Part shown: in pieces, positions 2,611 through 42,509 of the stretch
How the letters are laid out: every line of letters starts with the position of its first letter
How positions within the stretch are numbered: position 1 is the first letter of the stretch
IMG/VR virus record: IMGVR_UViG_3300037264_004923
Coordinates: 1 to 64,000 of that record
From: a virus
Strand: one strand, 5' to 3'
Length of the DNA: 64,000 bases
Notes under the pieces: generated by a model
Told to the model about the DNA's origin: nothing
Seen by the model: the letters and a program-made list of their open reading frames with translations, nothing else
Databases searched by the model: none
Position numbers and translations under genes: made by a program

Positions 2611-2987
2611 GAAACGGCCCATACCTACTACGAATAGCCCCGAGCGACTATCCTGGAAAGAAATACAGGGATAGGTAAGCCTACGAGCACCACCTCGTGT
2701 GGTGGCAGACTACCGGGGAAGTAATAGATACGGAAACCTTCATCATTCATCACACGAATGAAGACAAGCACGACAACAGGTTCCAGAACCTAGAGAAAAT
2801 GCTGAGAGCGGAGCACTCGAGAGAGCACTCTATGATAGCGGAAACCCGCATCATTGTTTGTGATTGGTGCGGCATAAAGTTCGAGAGAACTCTACGGAAC
2901 ATAAAATCCCATATCAGGGCCGGAGCCAAGCACTCCTTCTGCTGCCGTTCCCACCAAGTTAGATTCCAACAGAAATACCAGAGATAG
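2607..2987 (+). pseudogene. HNH homing endonuclease with in-frame TAA at 2676-2678
   Basis: Frame from ATG 2607 reads MRNGPYLLRIAPSDYPGKKYRDR*AYEHHLVWW...IIHHTNEDKHDNRFQNLE followed by a C-terminal Cys/Zn motif. Confidence 0.8.
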
Positions 2988-2989
2988 AT

Positions 2990-3061
2990 TGGGCAGTACC
3001 ATAACGGCAATGGACCTCCCTGTTAAGGAGTTGTATGTAGGTTCAAATCCTACCTGCCCAG
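2990..3061 (+). tRNA. tRNA-Asn(GTT), no encoded CCA
   Basis: TGGGCAG/CTGCCCA acceptor, CTGTTAA loop, G73. Confidence 0.9.
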
Positions 3062-3094
3062 CAAGTAAAGGAAAAACAAACAAAGGAAAGCCAG

Positions 3095-5986: not shown

Positions 5987-6273
5987 GCGCTCTTAGCTCA
6001 ATTGGCAGAGCAGCGGGCTTCAAATAGGAGCCCTTATAGGGAAACCCATAAGGTGAATCCGGTCAAATTCGGGGAACCCCTACAGGAGGCGTCCTAAGGC
6101 AACCCCGAGCCAAGCCCAGACATGGGAAGGTGTAGAGACTTGACGGCCGGGACCTAAAGGCGAAAGCCCATGGTCGTGAGAAAGTCCAGACCAGCAAGCC
6201 GTACAGGTGGCTTGGGAAACCAAGTGCTGGTAAGTTAACCCGTCGGTTGAAGGTTCGACTCCTTCAGGGCGCA
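5987..6273 (+). tRNA. tRNA-Lys(TTT) interrupted by a group I intron
   Basis: 5' exon 5987-6020 (GCGCTCT...GCGGG CT T) and 3' exon 6235-6273 (TT AA CCCGT...AGGGCGC A) join into a canonical cloverleaf with anticodon TTT and A73. Confidence 0.88.
6021..6234 (+). ncRNA. Self-splicing group I intron (IC3-like, 214 nt, no ORF)
   Basis: P1 GGGCTT/GAGCCC with U.G at the splice site; core motifs CAAATTCGGGGAA, GGCAACCCCGAGCCAAGC, AAGGTGTAGAGACT, AAAGTCCAG; terminal G. Confidence 0.92.
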
Positions 6274-11834: not shown

Positions 11835-11917
11835 GGGCGGGTGGTGTAATGGCAGCCACGAGGGACTTAAAATCCCTTGCTCGTAAGAGCGTACGGGTTC
11901 GAGTCCCGTCCCGCCTA
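11835..11917 (+). tRNA. tRNA-Leu(TAA), no encoded CCA
   Basis: GGGCGGG/CCCGCCT acceptor, CTTAAAA loop, long variable arm, A73. Confidence 0.93.
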
Positions 11918-11942
11918 CTACTCTTGAGTTAGGAGTTAGATT

Positions 11943-15943: not shown

Positions 15944-18900
15944 TTGCTGATTCCTAACTTCCCTTCGTTCCTTCAGGAAACTGCTAAGGAACACCTCCGT
16001 CGATTCAACAGCCGTATGAAGGCAGGCGGTCGCGCCCTAGACATGGCCGTCCAAGTTCGTCAGGACGAGGTGAACACCTTCCTGACTTTTCGCAGTGCCC
16101 GCCAAGGTTCTCTGAACGGTGAAACCGGAACGCTTGTCGTTCCTCGCCCTCGGAAGAACGAGTTTGGCAACTGGGTCATCGGCGATCGGAACGATCGTGC
16201 GCTGTGCCCCCTCATGATCGTGCTGAACGGACAGCCGCAACACGTGACTTACGAGGGGATGATCGGCACTCTCCTCTCTTCCAACGTCGAAGAGCTCTTC
16301 CCCGATCAGGGCAAGCGCAACTATTTCGACAAGATCCTGTGGGCCTTTTCCAAGGGGCGGGGTCGTCTCGCAGTTGGTATGTGTCAGCGGTTTCTGAACC
16401 AGACTATCTTCAACTCGCTTCCTCTCAGCGGCACCTCGATGCAGGATTGGGCGATGAATCATCGTCTGATGATCTTCGATCCGATCTTCGAGACTCTTCG
16501 CCCCGAAGAAAAGCTGGCGTATCAGAAGCGGAAGAATGAGCTGCTCTTCCCGTGGTCGTCCATCGGTCTGTCTGACGGTGCGGCGGCGGTGAAGAACTAC
16601 ATCCTCCAAGCGGACCTTCGCAAGTATACGGCATTCGGTAACCGGCATCACAATCCGATCCGCAATCTGTACTCCACGCTTGGCATGAAGGGAGAGGAGA
16701 AGCCTTTGGTCATCTCCAAGTCCATGTCGGGCTTGGAGGAGCAGGGGATCAGCCGCGGTGGTTGGAACTGGATGACCGTGTTCCTGGACCTGCCGTTGAA
16801 CTTCGAGGATCAGATCCTCGTTTCGCGCCGGCACGCTGGGAAGAAGGTGACGGACCATCGGAGCTTCATCGTGTTCGGCGAGGAATCGGCGGCTCTTGGG
16901 GATAACATCCTCAAGGATCGCGTCCTCGGCATGAACGAAGACGAGACACCTGTCGTGTTCGACATCGATTGTGACCACGCCAAGGTGATCGAGATCAAGG
17001 ACGGGGTTGTTCCGTTCGATGGCAATGATCAGCCGGTTCGTATCGTGACGCTCGAAGTGGTCTATTCCTTCAAGGAAGGATTCAAGATCACCAACCAGCA
17101 CGGCAATAAGGGCATCGTCATCTTGGAAGACCTAGGAACGGTTCACGATCCGAAGCGGGGTGAAATCCCGATCGACGTGATCGTTTCGGCTCGCTCGGTC
17201 CAGAAGCGCAAGAATTTCGGACAGATCTTGGAGGCCCTGGCCACTATGATCCACGGTACCGAAAAGCGCTTCATCGTTCCTGACGACATTGAGGTGTCCC
17301 AAGAACAGGTGGAGAAGTCTCTCGTGAGTGCGGGCTATTCCAAGGAGGGATCCTCGAAGGTATCCACTTCGTGGGGTGAGTTCGACACGCTCTGCGGCTG
17401 GATCCACTGGGGTGTCACCAAAACCCCCGAAGAACAGTTGTGGGAGAAGCGAGACACTTGGACGGAGAACCAGCGTGGACTTCGTACTCGAGGCAACAAG
17501 CTCTCGACCGTGGAACTCAAGGCGCTGACGACTCTGTTCGGCGCTGGTTCCAAGGTGGTGGGAGAGATCCTCTCCTACCAACAGGGACTCGGTGAAGTCC
17601 AGGAGTTGCTCCAGATCCTCGATAGCCTGCGCGGGAACGTTCGGGAAGAACTTCCTGTCGTGAACCCCGAGTCTTTCGTATACATCCCCACCGGTATGGG
17701 CACTTTCCATTCCATGGACGGTCTGGCTGGTACGCTGGCCGACGAGCATATGTATCCGCAGGGTTGCTACCTCCAACTACCCATAACTCTCCGCATGGAG
17801 GTTCCTCTGGAACGTTGGAAGAACCCCATCCGAGAAGGCATCGTGGGTGAAGAGAATGCGTACGGAAGCGAGGACTGCAAGGTGTACGAGGTCGATCGTC
17901 TCTTGATTCCGAGCTTCTCCCTTCGACAGCCGTGGCGACATCCGACTGGCAAGTTTGGCCTGTCCGAAGTGACCACGGTTCTGAACCAAGTCTTGGAGAA
18001 CATCGATCTGCTTCAGCGCGGGGAGATCAAGCCCGCCCAGCTTTCTGCCCTCATCTACAAGTATCTACACAACATTGGTCAGGGTCTCTCTACCAAGAGT
18101 GGAAAGATCAGCTCCTATCTCATGTCTGTCCGGTATCCGCACTCCTCGAAGGCGACCGCTGTTCTGGGTCGCAATCTGGAGGCGAACTGGGTGGAGATCC
18201 ACAAGGACATGGCAAAGGATCTGAGCGTCCAGACAGGAGACTACGTCTTGGTAGAGCGCTTTCCATGCCTCGGTTTCATGTCCGTACGCATCCAACGTGT
18301 GCGGGTGACCGATGATGTGGAGTGCAAGTACGTGATCCGGGTCAGCGGTAACTCGCTGGTCTCCATGAACTTGGACTTCGACGGAGACGTGATCTATGTG
18401 ATGAGCTTCCATACGGAAGCAGCCAAGGAAGAACTGCAGGCCAATTTCCACAATCCTCACCCGAGGATCAAGGAGGTTCTGGATACGATGAACGGGAAGA
18501 AGGTTCCCATCACGCGTTCCATGAACCTTCAGGAGATGGACCTGAAGAGCTTCGCACCGCTGACCCCCGAGGAACACGCAGATCTGAACGAGATCTCTCT
18601 TGCAGTCAAGCTGTATACGGGTCCTGTCATCGCTCTCTGCTACAACCTGATGCGTATTGCCGAAGGAAGCTTCAGCTACCAAGATCGTGAAGCCCACATC
18701 AATATCGAGGTCTTCCTCGATAAGGTCGGGAACTCGGTCTTCTCGCAGAAGCACGGTATTCGAAGCCTCAGGGAAGAGTGTACGGAGGCGGTGTGTCTTG
18801 CGGATCTGCAGGCAATGGTGAAGCTGGGATTCCCCGAGAAGGAATCCGCGAAGTTGTGCCAAGCCGTTCGAACTGCGGCTGCAAAGCTGGGAGTTCGGAA

Positions 18901-19129
18901 CGATGCAGAGCTAAAGGCTCACTACGAAAGGCACATCAAGGAAGGTCGCTCGAGCATCATCAATGCTATCGTTCGCCGTTTCCACAAGGCGTATTTTGCC
19001 ACCCGATCCAACCTGCATTCCTTGGATCTTCTGGAGCATCTCGATTCCAAGCCTAATGACTTGGCGTCGTTCTTGATCCAAGAGAGCCTTCGCAAGGTAC
19101 GGACTGCGCCCGCGGTTGCTGTAGCGTAA
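15944..19129 (+). CDS. Single-polypeptide two-barrel RNA polymerase (beta and beta' motifs fused)
   Basis: beta-type motifs NFEDQILVS, KITNQHGNKG, PIDVIVS..SV.KRKNFGQILE, RGNKLSTVE, followed by beta'-type VLVERFPCL and catalytic NLDFDGD. Confidence 0.9.
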   Translation: MLIPNFPSFLQETAKEHLRRFNSRMKAGGRALDMAVQVRQDEVNTFLTFRSARQGSLNGETGTLVVPRPRKNEFGNWVIGDRNDRALCPLMIVLNGQPQHVTYEGMIGTLLSSNVEELFPDQGKRNYFDKILWAFSKGRGRLAVGMCQRFLNQTIFNSLPLSGTSMQDWAMNHRLMIFDPIFETLRPEEKLAYQKRKNELLFPWSSIGLSDGAAAVKNYILQADLRKYTAFGNRHHNPIRNLYSTLGMKGEEKPLVISKSMSGLEEQGISRGGWNWMTVFLDLPLNFEDQILVSRRHAGKKVTDHRSFIVFGEESAALGDNILKDRVLGMNEDETPVVFDIDCDHAKVIEIKDGVVPFDGNDQPVRIVTLEVVYSFKEGFKITNQHGNKGIVILEDLGTVHDPKRGEIPIDVIVSARSVQKRKNFGQILEALATMIHGTEKRFIVPDDIEVSQEQVEKSLVSAGYSKEGSSKVSTSWGEFDTLCGWIHWGVTKTPEEQLWEKRDTWTENQRGLRTRGNKLSTVELKALTTLFGAGSKVVGEILSYQQGLGEVQELLQILDSLRGNVREELPVVNPESFVYIPTGMGTFHSMDGLAGTLADEHMYPQGCYLQLPITLRMEVPLERWKNPIREGIVGEENAYGSEDCKVYEVDRLLIPSFSLRQPWRHPTGKFGLSEVTTVLNQVLENIDLLQRGEIKPAQLSALIYKYLHNIGQGLSTKSGKISSYLMSVRYPHSSKATAVLGRNLEANWVEIHKDMAKDLSVQTGDYVLVERFPCLGFMSVRIQRVRVTDDVECKYVIRVSGNSLVSMNLDFDGDVIYVMSFHTEAAKEELQANFHNPHPRIKEVLDTMNGKKVPITRSMNLQEMDLKSFAPLTPEEHADLNEISLAVKLYTGPVIALCYNLMRIAEGSFSYQDREAHINIEVFLDKVGNSVFSQKHGIRSLREECTEAVCLADLQAMVKLGFPEKESAKLCQAVRTAAAKLGVRNDAELKAHYERHIKEGRSSIINAIVRRFHKAYFATRSNLHSLDLLEHLDSKPNDLASFLIQESLRKVRTAPAVAVA

Positions 19130-34591: not shown

Positions 34592-36058
34592 ATGAAGCAA
34601 CTGAAGGCCCTTCGGGAGCTGGAACAGCAGCTCGGGGCGGAAGTGTTTCTCGCAGGCGGCGGCGTGCGCGATCTACTGCGAGGACAAGAACCAAACGACA
34701 TTGATGTAGTTGTACGGAATGTCGTACCAGCAGACTTTGAGGGATTTCTTCGGGAGAGAGGAGATCTCGCACTAGTTGGTAAATCGTTTGGCGTGTATAT
34801 CTTCCGTCCGAAGTTCAGCAAGACGTCGGTGGAAATCGCTTTCCCTCGAACCGAGGTGAGCACGGGAACGGGACATCGAGAGTTTTCCGTTCATACCGAC
34901 CCTATGATCTCTTTGGAGGAGGACTCCAAGCGTAGGGACTTTACTCTGAACGCCATGTACCTGCCTTTGTCGGCAATCCCAGAAGATGGTTTCGAAATCG
35001 ACGGCCGGGCGGTCATCGATTTTCACGGCGGACTGGAACATCTCCACCGGCGGCTGATCGTGGCCGTAGGTCGTCCAGAAGATCGGATTCAGGAAGACCC
35101 CCTGCGTATGCTTCGAGGCATAGTGCTAGTCGCGCGGACAGGGTACCGCTTGGATGGCAACACCTTCGGCGCCATCAAGCAATATGCCGATCTGATCCGT
35201 TCAGTCGCAGCAGAACGAGTGCGTGACGAGTTCGTGAAGCTCATGGAATCCGAGAAACCTTCCAGAGGCTTCAAGACCATGGCGCGCACTGGACTTCTGG
35301 ACTACATTCTTCCTGAGCTGTCAGCCTGTATTGGCTGCGGGCAGAACCCGAAGTATCATTCCTATCCGGTGTTCGAGCACCTAATTTACGCCACGGACGC
35401 GGCGTGTTCAATCACCCAACGATTGGATGTTCGCTTCGGCGCCCTCTGTCATGATCTGGGGAAGGCCCCGACACGTCAGGTGCGCCCTGGAGGGAATGGA
35501 CCAGACGACGTATCGTTCCACAACCACGAGATTGTATCGACCAAGCTCACCTACGCCTTCATGAAGCGTATGAAATTCCCCAAGGATTTCATCGAGGGTG
35601 TGGTTCAGCTGGTGCGATACCACCAATACAAGTACGATCGGGCGTGGACGGATAAGGCGGTTCGTCGCTTCATCCGCAATGCCTCGATTACCAAGGAGTA
35701 CTTGGAAAATCTGGACAGCCATCCCCAGTTCTTGGTCCGTCAGGCGGACCGCATGGGGAACGAGCTGAAGGCGCACCTACCCGTCACCTCGAAGCAGAAA
35801 GATTTCCAAGCGCGGATCGTCGAGATCTACAACTCTTCCTCAGCGCACAGCCTTCACGACCTCAAAGTGAATGGTGAAGATCTGAAGAAAGAACTGAAGT
35901 TGTCCCCTGGTCCCACCATCGGCAAGGTTGTTCGCTTCCTTTTCGAAGTGGTGGAAGAAACTCCAGAGGTCAACAATCGAGAGGACTTGCTCAAGATCGC
36001 ACGCAAGTTCTTGGAGGAGAATCCAAATGAAAGTGATCACACTGCTGGGGAGGTTTGA
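34592..36058 (+). CDS. cca: Class II tRNA nucleotidyltransferase (CCA-adding) with HD domain
   Basis: AGGGVRD..DID, RRDFTLNA, EDPLRMLR, ERVRDE, HDLGK. Confidence 0.9.
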   Translation: MKQLKALRELEQQLGAEVFLAGGGVRDLLRGQEPNDIDVVVRNVVPADFEGFLRERGDLALVGKSFGVYIFRPKFSKTSVEIAFPRTEVSTGTGHREFSVHTDPMISLEEDSKRRDFTLNAMYLPLSAIPEDGFEIDGRAVIDFHGGLEHLHRRLIVAVGRPEDRIQEDPLRMLRGIVLVARTGYRLDGNTFGAIKQYADLIRSVAAERVRDEFVKLMESEKPSRGFKTMARTGLLDYILPELSACIGCGQNPKYHSYPVFEHLIYATDAACSITQRLDVRFGALCHDLGKAPTRQVRPGGNGPDDVSFHNHEIVSTKLTYAFMKRMKFPKDFIEGVVQLVRYHQYKYDRAWTDKAVRRFIRNASITKEYLENLDSHPQFLVRQADRMGNELKAHLPVTSKQKDFQARIVEIYNSSSAHSLHDLKVNGEDLKKELKLSPGPTIGKVVRFLFEVVEETPEVNNREDLLKIARKFLEENPNESDHTAGEV

Positions 36059-41757: not shown

Positions 41758-42509
41758 GCATCTCCTTTATTGGGATCGGTGTCTTCTTGCTTCCTAAATC
41801 GCTTGTGCCAACCTATTTTCTTCCTGCTTTCTACCATTTTGGCTCGGGTTTCTTTGGAAATTATAGTTTTGGGTTTTAGTTTGGCGGCTTCTTTCATTTT
41901 GTTTCTTGTTGCAAGAGAATGTGTCTTACCGAAGAACGCATTATTATTACCTTTATGAGCTTCGGCAATCTTTTGCTTATGCTCTTCCGTGAGAACCATA
42001 CCCAGATGGGATTGCCTCATCTTATTTCTGCTTTCCTCCGAAAACTTCTTACCAAAAAGAGGATGATTCTCGCCTGACATACGAAGGCTCATGTTTTCTT
42101 TCCACTCTTTATTATGCTCTTTCCCAAAAGCTGGATTTTTTGCCCCTAACTTACATTCTCTCATTTTTTCTATAGACTCAGGAGAATGTTTCCTGCCCGG
42201 CACAGGACCAGCATGCCCGCCAAGTTCCCTATTGTACCCATTAGGAGTTAAAGAATTCAAGGTTCTTATCCAGTACATTTCTTTATCATCAAGTTCTTCT
42301 TTCGAATAGGCAGTATCTAAAAGAACAAAATCGAAGTTAGTACGTCCATGTTTTATCATTGCCTTGTTTATAACCAAACCGCCTTTACTTTGTGAAGTTT
42401 GAGAAAAGTGGGCAGATTTTCTCTTGTATGGATCAATGGTTTGACCGACATACAGCTTACTATTTATGGTGTTCTCTATTATGTAAATGTATCCAACAAA
42501 ACTCTGCAT
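41754..42509 (-). CDS. GIY-YIG homing endonuclease with NUMOD3 repeats
   Basis: GYIY.IEN..N.KLYVGQT, PNGYN, repeated G.KHS.E...KM; AT-rich. Confidence 0.92.
   Translation of the reverse strand: MQSFVGYIYIIENTINSKLYVGQTIDPYKRKSAHFSQTSQSKGGLVINKAMIKHGRTNFDFVLLDTAYSKEELDDKEMYWIRTLNSLTPNGYNRELGGHAGPVPGRKHSPESIEKMRECKLGAKNPAFGKEHNKEWKENMSLRMSGENHPLFGKKFSEESRNKMRQSHLGMVLTEEHKQKIAEAHKGNNNAFFGKTHSLATRNKMKEAAKLKPKTIISKETRAKMVESRKKIGWHKRFRKQEDTDPNKGDA

What the first reader, a model, noticed from the sequence alone, without database searches (positions are those of the whole stretch)
5987..6273. Group I intron inside the anticodon of a phage tRNA-Lys(UUU)
Seen: a 214-nt ORF-less intron with an Azoarcus-like IC3 core sits between anticodon positions 34 and 35, with a P1 U.G pair and terminal G. 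Established: the classic bacterial tRNA group I introns are in Leu(UAA), fMet, Ile(CAU) and Arg(CCU), and tRNA-Lys(UUU) is the target of the anti-phage nucleases PrrC and PARIS. Inference: an unusual insertion site, and a compact ribozyme. The unspliced precursor has no intact anticodon loop and might act as a nuclease-protected reservoir.
Basis: partly seen in the sequence, partly recalled or inferred. Interest (0 to 1): 0.7.

Follow-up and report, generated by a model that had tools for sequence, protein, structure and literature searches.

The report
Self-splicing intron in phage lysine tRNA

Summary
Window 5987-6020 plus 6235-6273 join into a canonical 73-nt tRNA-Lys(UUU). The 214 nt between them (6021-6234) are a group I intron: Rfam RF00028 scores 54.2 bits (cut-off 50). 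A model built only from 20 other tRNA-Lys(UUU) introns at the same site scores 174.9 bits, E about 5e-53. Helices P1-P9 are supported by covariation in 26 homologues. The U34·G wobble pair, the terminal G and P7 are invariant.

- Position 34/35 is the site of the classic tRNA-Leu(UAA) intron.
- "Lys.3Ug" is already a listed type (Williams 2020 preprint).
- I found the same type in about 16 distinct viral contigs, mostly inside phage tRNA arrays, in Gordonia phage Daredevil, and in Actinomycetota, Planctomycetota and Gemmatimonadota genomes.
- This scan had already noted the Daredevil-type case on other DNA.

The "nuclease-protected reservoir" idea has no support. After-U34 introns occur in Leu, Lys, Arg and Thr tRNAs whose loops begin C32-U33-U34, which fits site recognition rather than selection on lysine decoding.

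The phage setting is the modest novelty. A 2014 review states that all phage introns known then lay in protein genes. Standard tRNA finders miss this gene.

Verdict: new member of a known kind.

The parts
5987..6020 (+). 5' exon of tRNA-Lys(UUU): acceptor 5' strand, D arm, anticodon-stem 5' strand, C32 U33 U34
   Evidence: The joined exons fold as a 73-nt tRNA-Lys(UUU). The anticodon stem pairs in 99% of cells across 26 homologues, and 3 of its 5 pairs covary.
6021..6234 (+). Group I intron, 214 nt, IC3-like, with no ORF
   Evidence: RF00028 scores 54.2 bits against a cut-off of 50. The leave-one-out family model R1 scores 174.9 bits, E about 5e-53. Covariation is shown. The minimum-free-energy fold recovers most helices, z = -2.7.
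6018..6030 (+). P1: C32-U33-U34 plus intron C6021 pair with G6027-G6028-A6029-G6030. U34·G6028 is the wobble pair at the 5' splice site, and the loop is AAAUA. U6025-A6026-G6027 can instead pair with exon-2 U35-U36-A37 to form P10.
   Evidence: C-G, U-A and U·G are invariant in 26 of 26 homologues, and the +1 pair is C-G or U·G. The P10 pairing is read from the sequence and is inferred.
6032..6053 (+). P2 hairpin with a GAAA tetraloop (6041-6044)
   Evidence: 8 of its 9 pairs show changes on both sides across the homologues. The window copy has one A·C mismatch.
6059..6064 (+). P3 5' strand, pairing with 6145-6150
   Evidence: All 6 pairs covary and 87% of cells are paired.
6068..6109 (+). P4 (6068-6074 with 6103-6109) enclosing P5/P5a (6077-6099). 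The P5 3' strand carries a CCUAAG receptor-like motif.
   Evidence: P4 is paired in 91% of cells and 3 of its 7 pairs covary. P5a is variable and poorly aligned.
6110..6130 (+). P6/P6a
   Evidence: P6 is paired in 96% of cells and both pairs covary. P6a is paired in 90%.
6135..6140 (+). P7 5' strand with the bulged A6136. It pairs with 6183-6187 and forms the guanosine-binding helix and the pseudoknot with P3.
   Evidence: All 5 pairs are invariant in 26 of 26 homologues. It lies within the conserved core motif GAAGGUGUAGAGACU.GACGG.
6145..6150 (+). P3 3' strand
6151..6175 (+). P8/P8a with the motifs CCUAAAG...CAUGG, which resemble a tetraloop receptor
   Evidence: P8 is paired in 98% of cells and 3 of its 4 pairs covary. 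The receptor reading rests on resemblance and is inferred.
6183..6187 (+). P7 3' strand (AGUCC)
   Evidence: It is invariant.
6191..6230 (+). P9 three-way junction: the P9 stem (6191-6196 with 6225-6230), P9a, and P9b with a GAAA loop (6216-6219)
   Evidence: P9b is paired in 100% of cells and all 3 pairs covary. The outer three P9 pairs also covary.
6234..6234 (+). Terminal guanosine (omega G) before the 3' splice site
   Evidence: It is an invariant column, followed by the invariant UUAA, in 26 of 26 homologues.
6235..6273 (+). 3' exon: U35 U36 A37 A38, anticodon-stem 3' strand, variable loop, T arm, acceptor 3' strand, A73. No CCA is encoded.
   Evidence: An uninterrupted phage tRNA-Lys(UUU), L384:1252-1326(-), contains the 22-nt pattern that spans the predicted exon junction.
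34592..36058 (+). Context: a phage tRNA nucleotidyltransferase (CCA-adding enzyme), needed because the tRNA genes lack an encoded CCA
   Evidence: phrog_2244, E 1.6e-66.

Best explanation
This is a working tRNA-Lys(UUU) gene of a jumbo phage, interrupted between wobble nucleotide U34 and U35 by a compact, ORF-less group I intron with an IC3-like core typical of bacterial tRNA introns.

Inferred mechanism, from the standard group I pathway:
1. In the primary transcript of the tRNA array the intron folds into P3-P9 with the P3/P7 pseudoknot. The P2 and P9b GAAA tetraloops dock on receptor-like motifs.
2. The guide GGAG (6027-6030) pairs with C32-U33-U34 and intron nucleotide 1 to form P1, with the U34·G6028 wobble pair at the splice site.
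3. A free guanosine bound at P7 attacks after U34.
4. G6234 then enters the same pocket, UAG (6025-6027) aligns exon-2 UUA as P10, and the 3'-OH of U34 attacks after G6234.
5. The ligated product is CUU-UUAA, that is, anticodon UUU.
6. End trimming and CCA addition follow, probably by the phage's own CCA-adding enzyme.

The intron itself is most probably a neutral or selfish passenger. It recognises the C32-U33-U34 half-loop shared by Leu(UAA), Lys(UUU), Arg(UCU) and Thr(UGU) tRNAs.

Shown here: the intron family, the boundaries, the conserved structure, and the tRNA product by sequence. Inferred: catalysis, P10, the tertiary contacts and the function of the tRNA.
For: - Rfam RF00028 scores above its gathering cut-off.
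- The leave-one-out family model gives 174.9 bits, full length, across both junctions.
- On 26 homologues 84.8% of cells pair, against 31-47% for slid partners. 42 of 67 pairs change on both sides, and 0 of 500 shuffles reach the observed values.
- P1 (including U·G), P7 and the terminal G are invariant.
- The thermodynamic fold independently recovers P1-P6, P8 and P9, z = -2.7.
- The spliced product is a canonical cloverleaf with loop CUUUUAA and A73.
- An uninterrupted phage tRNA-Lys contains the 22-nt pattern that spans the predicted exon junction.
- The gene sits in an array of 10 other tRNAs with no other tRNA-Lys in the 101.8 kb.
- In other phage arrays the intron-split gene likewise fills the otherwise empty Lys(UUU) slot.
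- A CCA-adding enzyme is encoded at 34592-36058.
- The same guide serves Lys(UUU) and Arg(UCU) genes. Introns of different tRNA types interleave on the tree, and one clade of all IC3-type Lys introns is rejected at p-AU 0.0035.
Against: - There is no experimental or transcript evidence of splicing.
- The Rfam score is only 4 bits above the cut-off. Williams 2020 notes that none of the 12 seeds of that model is bacterial.
- P1 has only 3 exon pairs plus 1 intron pair. P2 has an A·C mismatch. P5a and P9a are idiosyncratic.
- Similarity of the tRNA body does not discriminate the isotype: the best-matching bodies are Arg, Lys and Met. 'Lys' therefore rests on the anticodon and A73.
- Daredevil, which carries a homologous split gene, is reported to lack its own tRNA and to form clear plaques. 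Its copy therefore did not visibly rescue lysogeny.
- No close relative of this phage was found, so intron-plus and intron-minus alleles could not be compared.
- The contig is a 34% fragment, so 'only tRNA-Lys' is provisional.
Confidence: 0.85

Rival explanations
1. The intron is adaptive. On this reading the unspliced precursor lacks a free anticodon loop and so escapes anticodon nucleases such as PrrC. It would act as a protected reserve, or a ribozyme-gated supply, of tRNA-Lys(UUU) during infection.
For: tRNA-Lys is a documented target of PrrC and PARIS, and phage tRNA-Lys genes can neutralise such defences. In the precursor, C32-U34 are sequestered in P1. Earlier notes of this scan report phage tRNA-Lys(UUU) genes split at or near the anticodon by several unrelated insert types. 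Those notes are unchecked leads only.
Against: - No datum here bears on splicing kinetics or nuclease sensitivity.
- The mature product has the standard loop CUUUUAA, so it gains no protection once spliced.
- PARIS AriB cuts between residues 40 and 41 in the anticodon stem. That stem is conserved and covaries in the precursor sequences, so it probably still forms there.
- The same intron family at the same site is commoner in tRNA-Leu(UAA) and equally common in tRNA-Arg(UCU), including in ordinary bacterial chromosomes. This is what target-site recognition predicts. Selection on tRNA-Lys does not predict it.
Confidence: 0.06
2. The gene is a decaying pseudogene. The intron no longer splices and the phage relies on host tRNA-Lys.
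For: The gene is invisible to tRNA finders. There is one A·C mismatch in P2. Daredevil's homologous gene did not visibly support lysogeny.
Against: Every core element, the U·G pair, the terminal G and the P7 pocket are intact and match the family consensus at 174.9 bits. Both exons keep a perfect cloverleaf. The P2 mismatch lies in a helix that tolerates variation.
Confidence: 0.06
3. Splicing occurs one nucleotide upstream on both sides (after U33 and before G6234), giving anticodon GUU (Asn).
For: ARAGORN accepts that joined sequence as tRNA-Asn(GUU). G6234 is invariant and could in principle be G34.
Against: The nucleotide at -1 would then be U33, which pairs with A6029 in a Watson-Crick pair rather than a wobble. 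The intron would end in A, G, C or U across homologues instead of the required G. The phage already has a tRNA-Asn(GUU) at 2990-3062. The tRNA body resembles Lys bodies more than Asn bodies, best scores 35 against 25.
Confidence: 0.01
4. The intron is removed by proteins (an endonuclease plus an RNA ligase) rather than by self-splicing.
For: Some phage tRNA inserts noted elsewhere in this scan are too small to be ribozymes (unchecked).
Against: A complete group I core is present. No Rnl1, Rnl2-type or RtcB ligase was found in the 101.8-kb record, although the record is incomplete and the Rnl1 search rang in none of its control genomes.
Confidence: 0.02

Closest known systems
[quoted passage not shown]
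   Same: Same host gene type. Same junction after the third anticodon-loop nucleotide (34/35). U at -1 and a terminal G. The guide is ...AAUGGAG in the seed member against ...AAUAGGAG here.
   Different: That study covered bacterial and archaeal genomes only. Its seed member has a variant core (UCAGAGACUA, with an extended P5), like my Agromyces, Arthrobacter and Planctomycetota subgroup. The window carries the canonical IC3 core (GUAGAGACUU) and sits in a phage tRNA array.
[quoted passage not shown]
   Same: Identical insertion point (U34|N35). P1 pairs with C32-U33-U34. Same IC3 core strings, a P2 GAAA loop, and a P9 three-way junction ending ...GGUAAG.
   Different: The tRNA is a different one. 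The 3' exon begins UUAA rather than AAAA, so the P10 guide differs. The window's own tRNA-Leu(UAA) at 11835-11918 is uninterrupted.
Azoarcus tRNA-Ile(CAU) intron (solved structures; 'Ile2.5Ug')
   Same: Compact size of about 200 nt, and near-identical J3/4-P4, P6, J6/7-P7 and J8/7-P7 strings (compare row Aol6). GAAA tetraloops in P2 and P9, and CCUAAG-type receptor motifs.
   Different: The Azoarcus intron lies after anticodon nt 36 (loop position 5). Its P9 is a single hairpin, whereas the window has P9, P9a and P9b. I did not run subtype-specific models.
Unannotated split tRNA-Lys(UUU) of Gordonia phage Daredevil (NC_048021, L001:2996-3307)
   Same: A phage-borne tRNA-Lys(UUU) with a group I intron at 34/35, the same guide AAAUAGGAG, and 67.8% identity over 202 nt.
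   Different: Its intron is 238 nt. Daredevil is a temperate siphovirus, and the gene is a lone tRNA beside the integrase. Its intron clusters with Actinomycetota chromosomal copies, whereas the window's does not.

Membership tests
Group I intron (Rfam RF00028) | Covariance-model score at or above the curated gathering score | tested here: met
   54.2 bits against 50, covering model positions 1-253.
Group I intron (Rfam RF00028) | P1 helix with a U·G wobble pair at the 5' splice site | tested here: met
   U34 (6020)·G6028. The pair is invariant in 26 of 26 homologues.
Group I intron (Rfam RF00028) | Terminal guanosine immediately before the 3' splice site | tested here: met
   G6234, an invariant column.
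Group I intron (Rfam RF00028) | Conserved core: the P4-P6 domain, the P3-P7 pseudoknot, and P7 with a bulged A and the G-binding pair | tested here: met
   All 6 P3 pairs covary. P4 is paired in 91% of cells and P6 in 96%. All 5 P7 pairs are invariant.
Group I intron (Rfam RF00028) | Guanosine- and Mg-dependent self-splicing | not testable with these tools
   This needs an in vitro transcript or RNA reads.
IC3 subgroup (bacterial tRNA introns) | Located in the anticodon loop of a tRNA gene. No P5abc extension. Compact size of about 200-250 nt. | tested here: met
   214 nt, junction at 34/35, and a short P5/P5a.
IC3 subgroup (bacterial tRNA introns) | Core sequence strings shared with accepted IC3 tRNA introns | tested here: met
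   AAAUUCGGGGAAC, GAGCCAAGCC, GAAGGUGUAGAGACUUGACGG and AAAGUCCAGACC match the Leu, Thr, Arg and Ile2 seed rows printed. The 21-nt core motif recovers tRNA introns in IMG/VR.
IC3 subgroup (bacterial tRNA introns) | Assignment by subtype-specific covariance models (GISSD or Nawrocki sets) | not tested
'Lys.3Ug' type (Williams 2020) | tRNA-Lys host gene, with the intron after loop nucleotide 3, U at -1 and G at the intron's 3' end | tested here: met
   Loop CUU/UUAA.
'Lys.3Ug' type (Williams 2020) | Homology to other Lys(UUU) 34/35 introns under a model that excludes the window | tested here: met
   Model R1 (20 sequences, without the window) gives 174.9 bits, E about 5e-53, covering model positions 1-219 of 219, and is the only hit in 64 kb.
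'Lys.3Ug' type (Williams 2020) | Same intron lineage as the published seed member Mle24 | tested here: not met
   Mle24-like introns (Agromyces, Arthrobacter, Planctomycetota, L133) form a separate clade with a variant core. The window lies among the canonical IC3 introns.
Functional tRNA-Lys | Canonical cloverleaf, anticodon UUU, A73, U33 and a purine at 37 | tested here: met
   ARAGORN on the joined exons.
Functional tRNA-Lys | Isotype supported by the tRNA body, independent of the anticodon | tested here: inconclusive
   The nearest bodies among 685 tRNAs are Arg (37), Lys (35) and Met (34), with Asn at 25. No isotype-specific models were available.

The most novel reading that the evidence does not exclude
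The intron is kept in phage tRNA-Lys(UUU) genes because it makes the supply of this defence-targeted tRNA conditional. The precursor, with C32-U34 locked in P1, would be invisible to anticodon-loop nucleases of the PrrC type, and would be spliced into a replacement tRNA as infection proceeds. That would make it a ribozyme-gated counter-defence tRNA.
Probability: 0.06. Interest if true: 0.8.

Novelty: new member of a known kind. Interest (0 to 1): 0.38.

Why it matters
There are three modest points.

1. Phage tRNA repertoires are undercounted. ARAGORN misses this gene, so the Lys(UUU) slot of this array looks empty. The same holds for other phage tRNA arrays. For Gordonia phage Daredevil, a paper reports that the phage has no tRNA of its own. 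This matters now that phage tRNA-Lys genes are read as counter-defence against PrrC, PARIS and retron effectors.

2. A 2014 review states that all phage introns then known were in protein-coding genes. I found no later paper describing group I introns in phage tRNA genes. Yet one 21-nt core motif alone retrieves at least 120 stretches from IMG/VR, most of them split tRNA genes.

3. The family offers many natural compact ribozymes of 184-279 nt, with rich covariation, for structure and engineering work.

None of this changes what is known about how group I introns work.

Tried and rejected
- **Automatic splice-site calls.** ARAGORN with long-intron settings gave the right outer gene ends but the wrong splice sites and isotype. 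Brute-force joining of every U/G pair gave many spurious cloverleaves. It needed filters on P1 pairing, U33 and R37, and some exon calls remain doubtful (for example L087, L024 and the 'Ala', 'Pro' and 'SeC' rows, which I left out of the tree).
- **Close relatives of this phage.** I looked for them to compare alleles with and without the intron. The neighbouring 171-aa ORF found none. The NAMPT gene found only relatives at 62% identity or less. Megablast of 20 kb against 50,697 phage records found nothing.
- **Isotype from the tRNA body.** This was inconclusive.
- **Tandem copies in L164 and L175.** The adjacent uninterrupted Lys(UUU) is a different, divergent gene and not an intron-less copy, so it says nothing about the junction.
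- **RNA ligase or RtcB.** None was found, but the record is a 34% fragment and the Rnl1 control rang in no genome.
- **Tree placement.** The position of the window's intron is unresolved, with no starred clade. The AU test used a group that I trimmed after seeing the tree, so it is indicative only.
- **Asn(GUU) junction.** Considered and rejected (see rival explanations).

Full report
**1. Observation**

The sequence at 5987-6273 reads as three pieces. The first is a 34-nt tRNA 5' half that ends C32-U33-U34 at 6020. The second is a 214-nt insert, 6021-6234, that ends in G. The third is a 39-nt tRNA 3' half that begins U35-U36-A37-A38 and ends with discriminator A at 6273, with no encoded CCA.

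Joining the halves gives a 73-nt canonical cloverleaf that ARAGORN calls tRNA-Lys(UUU). ARAGORN on the native sequence finds ten other tRNAs in the window but not this one. With its intron option it finds the right outer ends but calls a tRNA-Leu(CAA) with a 200-nt intron.

Rfam's group I model matches 6010-6203 at 54.2 bits against a gathering score of 50. The E-value is 5.5e-11 for the whole window and 3.9e-13 for the region. It is the only such hit in the whole 101,763-bp record.

**2. Source**

The window is the first 64 kb of an IMG/VR virus record that CheckV rates 34% complete, which suggests a genome near 300 kb. The genes found fit a jumbo phage:
- a NUDIX/NAMPT NAD-salvage pair;
- a 1061-aa ORF with RNA polymerase beta and beta' domains;
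- a DNA helicase;
- a Lon-like protease;
- a tRNA nucleotidyltransferase.

No phage record is close at the DNA level. The best NAMPT relatives in IMG/VR are 62% identical or less. The whole record holds 10 uninterrupted tRNAs and no other tRNA-Lys.

**3. Anatomy**

By comparison with bacterial tRNA introns I assign the following helices.

| Element | Window coordinates | Notes |
|---|---|---|
| P1 | 6018-6021 with 6027-6030 | U34·G6028 wobble pair |
| P2 | 6032-6053 | GAAA loop; one A·C mismatch |
| P3 | 6059-6064 with 6145-6150 | |
| P4 | 6068-6074 with 6103-6109 | |
| P5/P5a | 6077-6099 | |
| P6/P6a | 6110-6130 | |
| P7 | 6135-6140 with 6183-6187 | bulged A6136; pseudoknot with P3 |
| P8/P8a | 6151-6175 | |
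| P9 junction | 6191-6230 | three-way; P9b carries a GAAA loop |
| Terminal G | 6234 | |

U6025-A6026-G6027, just 5' of the guide, can pair with exon-2 U35-U36-A37 as a 3-bp P10. That pairing is inferred.

The minimum-free-energy fold of 6013-6243 independently returns P1, P2, P3, P4, P5, P6a, P8, P9, P9b and the anticodon stem. Its energy is -84.7 kcal/mol and z = -2.7.

**4. Relatives**

Blastn against phage records found Gordonia phage Daredevil at 67.8% identity over 202 nt, in an unannotated gap beside the integrase. Reading that stretch shows a complete tRNA-Lys(UUU) split at the same 34/35 point by a 238-nt intron.

After splice-site refinement, most hits are tRNA-Leu(UAA) genes split at 34/35. 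Smaller numbers are Lys(UUU), Thr(UGU), Met and Arg.

A pattern specific to the Lys-type 5' junction gave these counts of 34/35-split genes. The genome scan stopped at 120 rows.

| Collection | Lys(UUU) | Arg(UCU) |
|---|---|---|
| Viral set (includes the Daredevil GenBank locus L001 and the window's own locus L002) | 15 | 12 |
| Bacterial genomes (first 120 rows) | 11 | 16 |

The bacterial Lys(UUU) copies come from Microbacterium, Agromyces, Arthrobacter, Frankiaceae, Nocardioidaceae, Planctomycetota and Gemmatimonadaceae. The Arg(UCU) copies are mostly from Bacillaceae.

After removing duplicates I had 26 distinct Lys(UUU) 34/35 sequences. Most of the viral ones lie in arrays of 7-22 tRNAs. 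In six of these arrays (L111, L150, L138, L139, L154, L179) ARAGORN finds no uninterrupted Lys(UUU), so the split gene fills that slot.

**5. Comparative test of the structure**

On the MAFFT alignment of the 26 sequences, my structure pairs 84.8% of cells. Partners slid by 1-3 columns pair only 31-47%. Of the 67 pairs, 42 show changes on both sides. The covariation score is 0.417 against 0.05-0.10 for slid partners, and none of 500 shuffles reaches any observed measure.

The three exon pairs of P1 (including U·G), all five P7 pairs, the terminal G and the following UUAA are invariant. One caution applies: 20 of the 26 sequences were retrieved with a pattern that demanded ATAGGAG, so invariance of the guide is partly by construction. 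The other six came from the independent core-motif scan or blastn, and they show the same guide.

**6. Leave-one-out membership**

A covariance model built from 20 canonical-core relatives, without the window, matches the window once. The match is at 6013-6243, full length, at 174.9 bits with E about 5e-53.

**7. Junction**

The alternative of splicing one nucleotide upstream on both sides would give Asn(GUU). It would also put a Watson-Crick U-A pair at the splice site, and the intron would end in a variable nucleotide across homologues. The phage already has a tRNA-Asn(GUU).

An uninterrupted tRNA-Lys(UUU) in another viral contig contains the 22-nt pattern that spans the predicted junction, including CUU-UUAA.

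Body similarity alone cannot assign the isotype. The best scores are Arg 37, Lys 35, Met 34 and Asn 25.

**8. What is known**

- Williams (2020, bioRxiv 10.1101/2020.01.27.920355) raised the number of group-I-split bacterial tRNA types from four (Leu.3Ug, Arg.5Ug, fMet.2Ug, Ile2.5Ug) to 21.
- The seed alignment of that study contains Mle24.Lys.3Ug and Mpe6.Lys.4Ug. Position '3' is 34/35, the classical tRNA-Leu site. The site and the Lys host are therefore not new.
- Mle24 has a variant core. It resembles my Agromyces, Arthrobacter and Planctomycetota subgroup, which forms a separate clade on the tree. The window carries the canonical IC3 core.
- For phages, Hausner et al. 2014 (PMC3984707) state that all phage introns then observed were in protein-coding genes, despite the many phage tRNA genes.
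- My searches found no later description of group I introns in phage tRNA genes. The library is incomplete, so this is absence of evidence only.
- This scan has noted the Daredevil-type case, and after-U34 introns in other phage tRNAs, on other DNA.

**9. Evolution**

On a 198-column tree the introns cluster by tRNA type more than chance would give: 16 changes against 50 expected. The clustering is not clean, and Lys, Arg and Leu introns interleave.

The window's intron has no well-supported sister. Its closest relative by identity is L035, at 72%. Holding all 21 canonical-core Lys introns together costs 89 log-likelihood units, p-AU 0.0035. That test is indicative only, because I trimmed the group after seeing the tree and a few exon calls are doubtful.

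Lys(UUU) and Arg(UCU) differ only at nt 35. G6027 of the guide can pair with either U35 or C35. This would let one intron serve both targets (inferred).

**10. The defence idea**

PrrC cleaves tRNA-Lys(UUU).

The following points weigh against a protective role for the intron:
- The mature product has the standard loop.
- The anticodon stem, which AriB cuts, is conserved and covaries in the precursor sequences, so it probably forms there.
- The same intron family at the same site is commoner in tRNA-Leu(UAA) than in tRNA-Lys.
- It also occurs in ordinary bacterial chromosomes.
- Daredevil forms clear plaques although it carries the split gene.

I put this reading at about 6%.

**11. Verdict**

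This is a real, intact group I intron with a canonical IC3-like core in a phage tRNA-Lys(UUU) gene. It is a new member of a known kind. Its main value is practical: it exposes hidden tRNA genes in phage arrays. It also adds to the case that tRNA group I introns are common in phages.

Noticed in passing
L001:2996-3307 (Gordonia phage Daredevil NC_048021, about 41820-42130): An unannotated tRNA-Lys(UUU) split by a 238-nt group I intron lies beside the integrase. A 2024 mBio paper (PMC10865867) states that Daredevil integrates into the host tRNA-Lys-TTT gene, does not rebuild it, encodes no tRNA of its own and forms clear plaques.
   Followed up: partly
window 2697-2987: A 96-aa ORF with HNH-endonuclease matches (phrog_14913, E 5e-8) ends 3 nt before tRNA-Asn(GUU) at 2990. 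This is a free-standing nuclease inside the tRNA array.
   Followed up: no
window 34592-36058: The phage encodes a tRNA nucleotidyltransferase (phrog_2244, E 1.6e-66). The split tRNA-Lys gene has no encoded CCA.
   Followed up: partly
L386:1279-1573 (Agrobacterium phage Atu_ph07, MF403008) and L387:1457-1678 (735-kb uncultured phage LR756501): Model R1 matches at 160-188 bits. The junctions read CUU|...G|AAAA, that is, tRNA-Leu(UAA)-type group I introns, here in a cultured jumbo phage and in a published huge phage. In Atu_ph07 the 3' end of the match overlaps an annotated 'hypothetical protein'; the LR756501 record carries no annotation.
   Followed up: partly
L385:1449-1661 (Pelagibacter phage HTVC120P, MH598807): An IC3-like intron (146.9 bits with R1) lies between two ORFs that are both annotated 'capsid protein'. 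This looks like a tRNA-type intron core splitting a phage capsid gene.
   Followed up: no
L164 and L175 (IMG/VR contigs 3300029258_003252 and 3300018080_004888): The intron-split tRNA-Lys(UUU) is flanked by a divergent, uninterrupted tRNA-Lys(UUU) whose anticodon loop reads CUUUUAC. A tRNA-Lys(CUU) also lies nearby. That makes three lysine tRNAs in one phage array.
   Followed up: partly
L040:1120-1303, L111:7397-7581, L035:2235-2419: These phage tRNA-Lys introns are only 184-185 nt long, shorter than the window's 214 nt. They have minimal P5, P6 and P8 hairpins and may be useful as very small natural group I ribozymes.
   Followed up: no
L216, L224, L226, L255, L258, L262 and others (Bacillaceae genomes); L124, L137, L148, L153 and others (viral contigs): tRNA-Arg(UCU) genes are split at 34/35 by group I introns that use the same AUAGGAG guide as the Lys introns. 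There are 16 such genes in the first 120 genome rows and 12 in viral contigs.
   Followed up: partly
I did not examine it.
   Followed up: no
window 15944-19129: A single 1061-aa ORF carries both RNA polymerase Rpb2 domain 6 and Rpb1 domain 2 matches, which suggests a fused beta/beta'-like polymerase.
   Followed up: no
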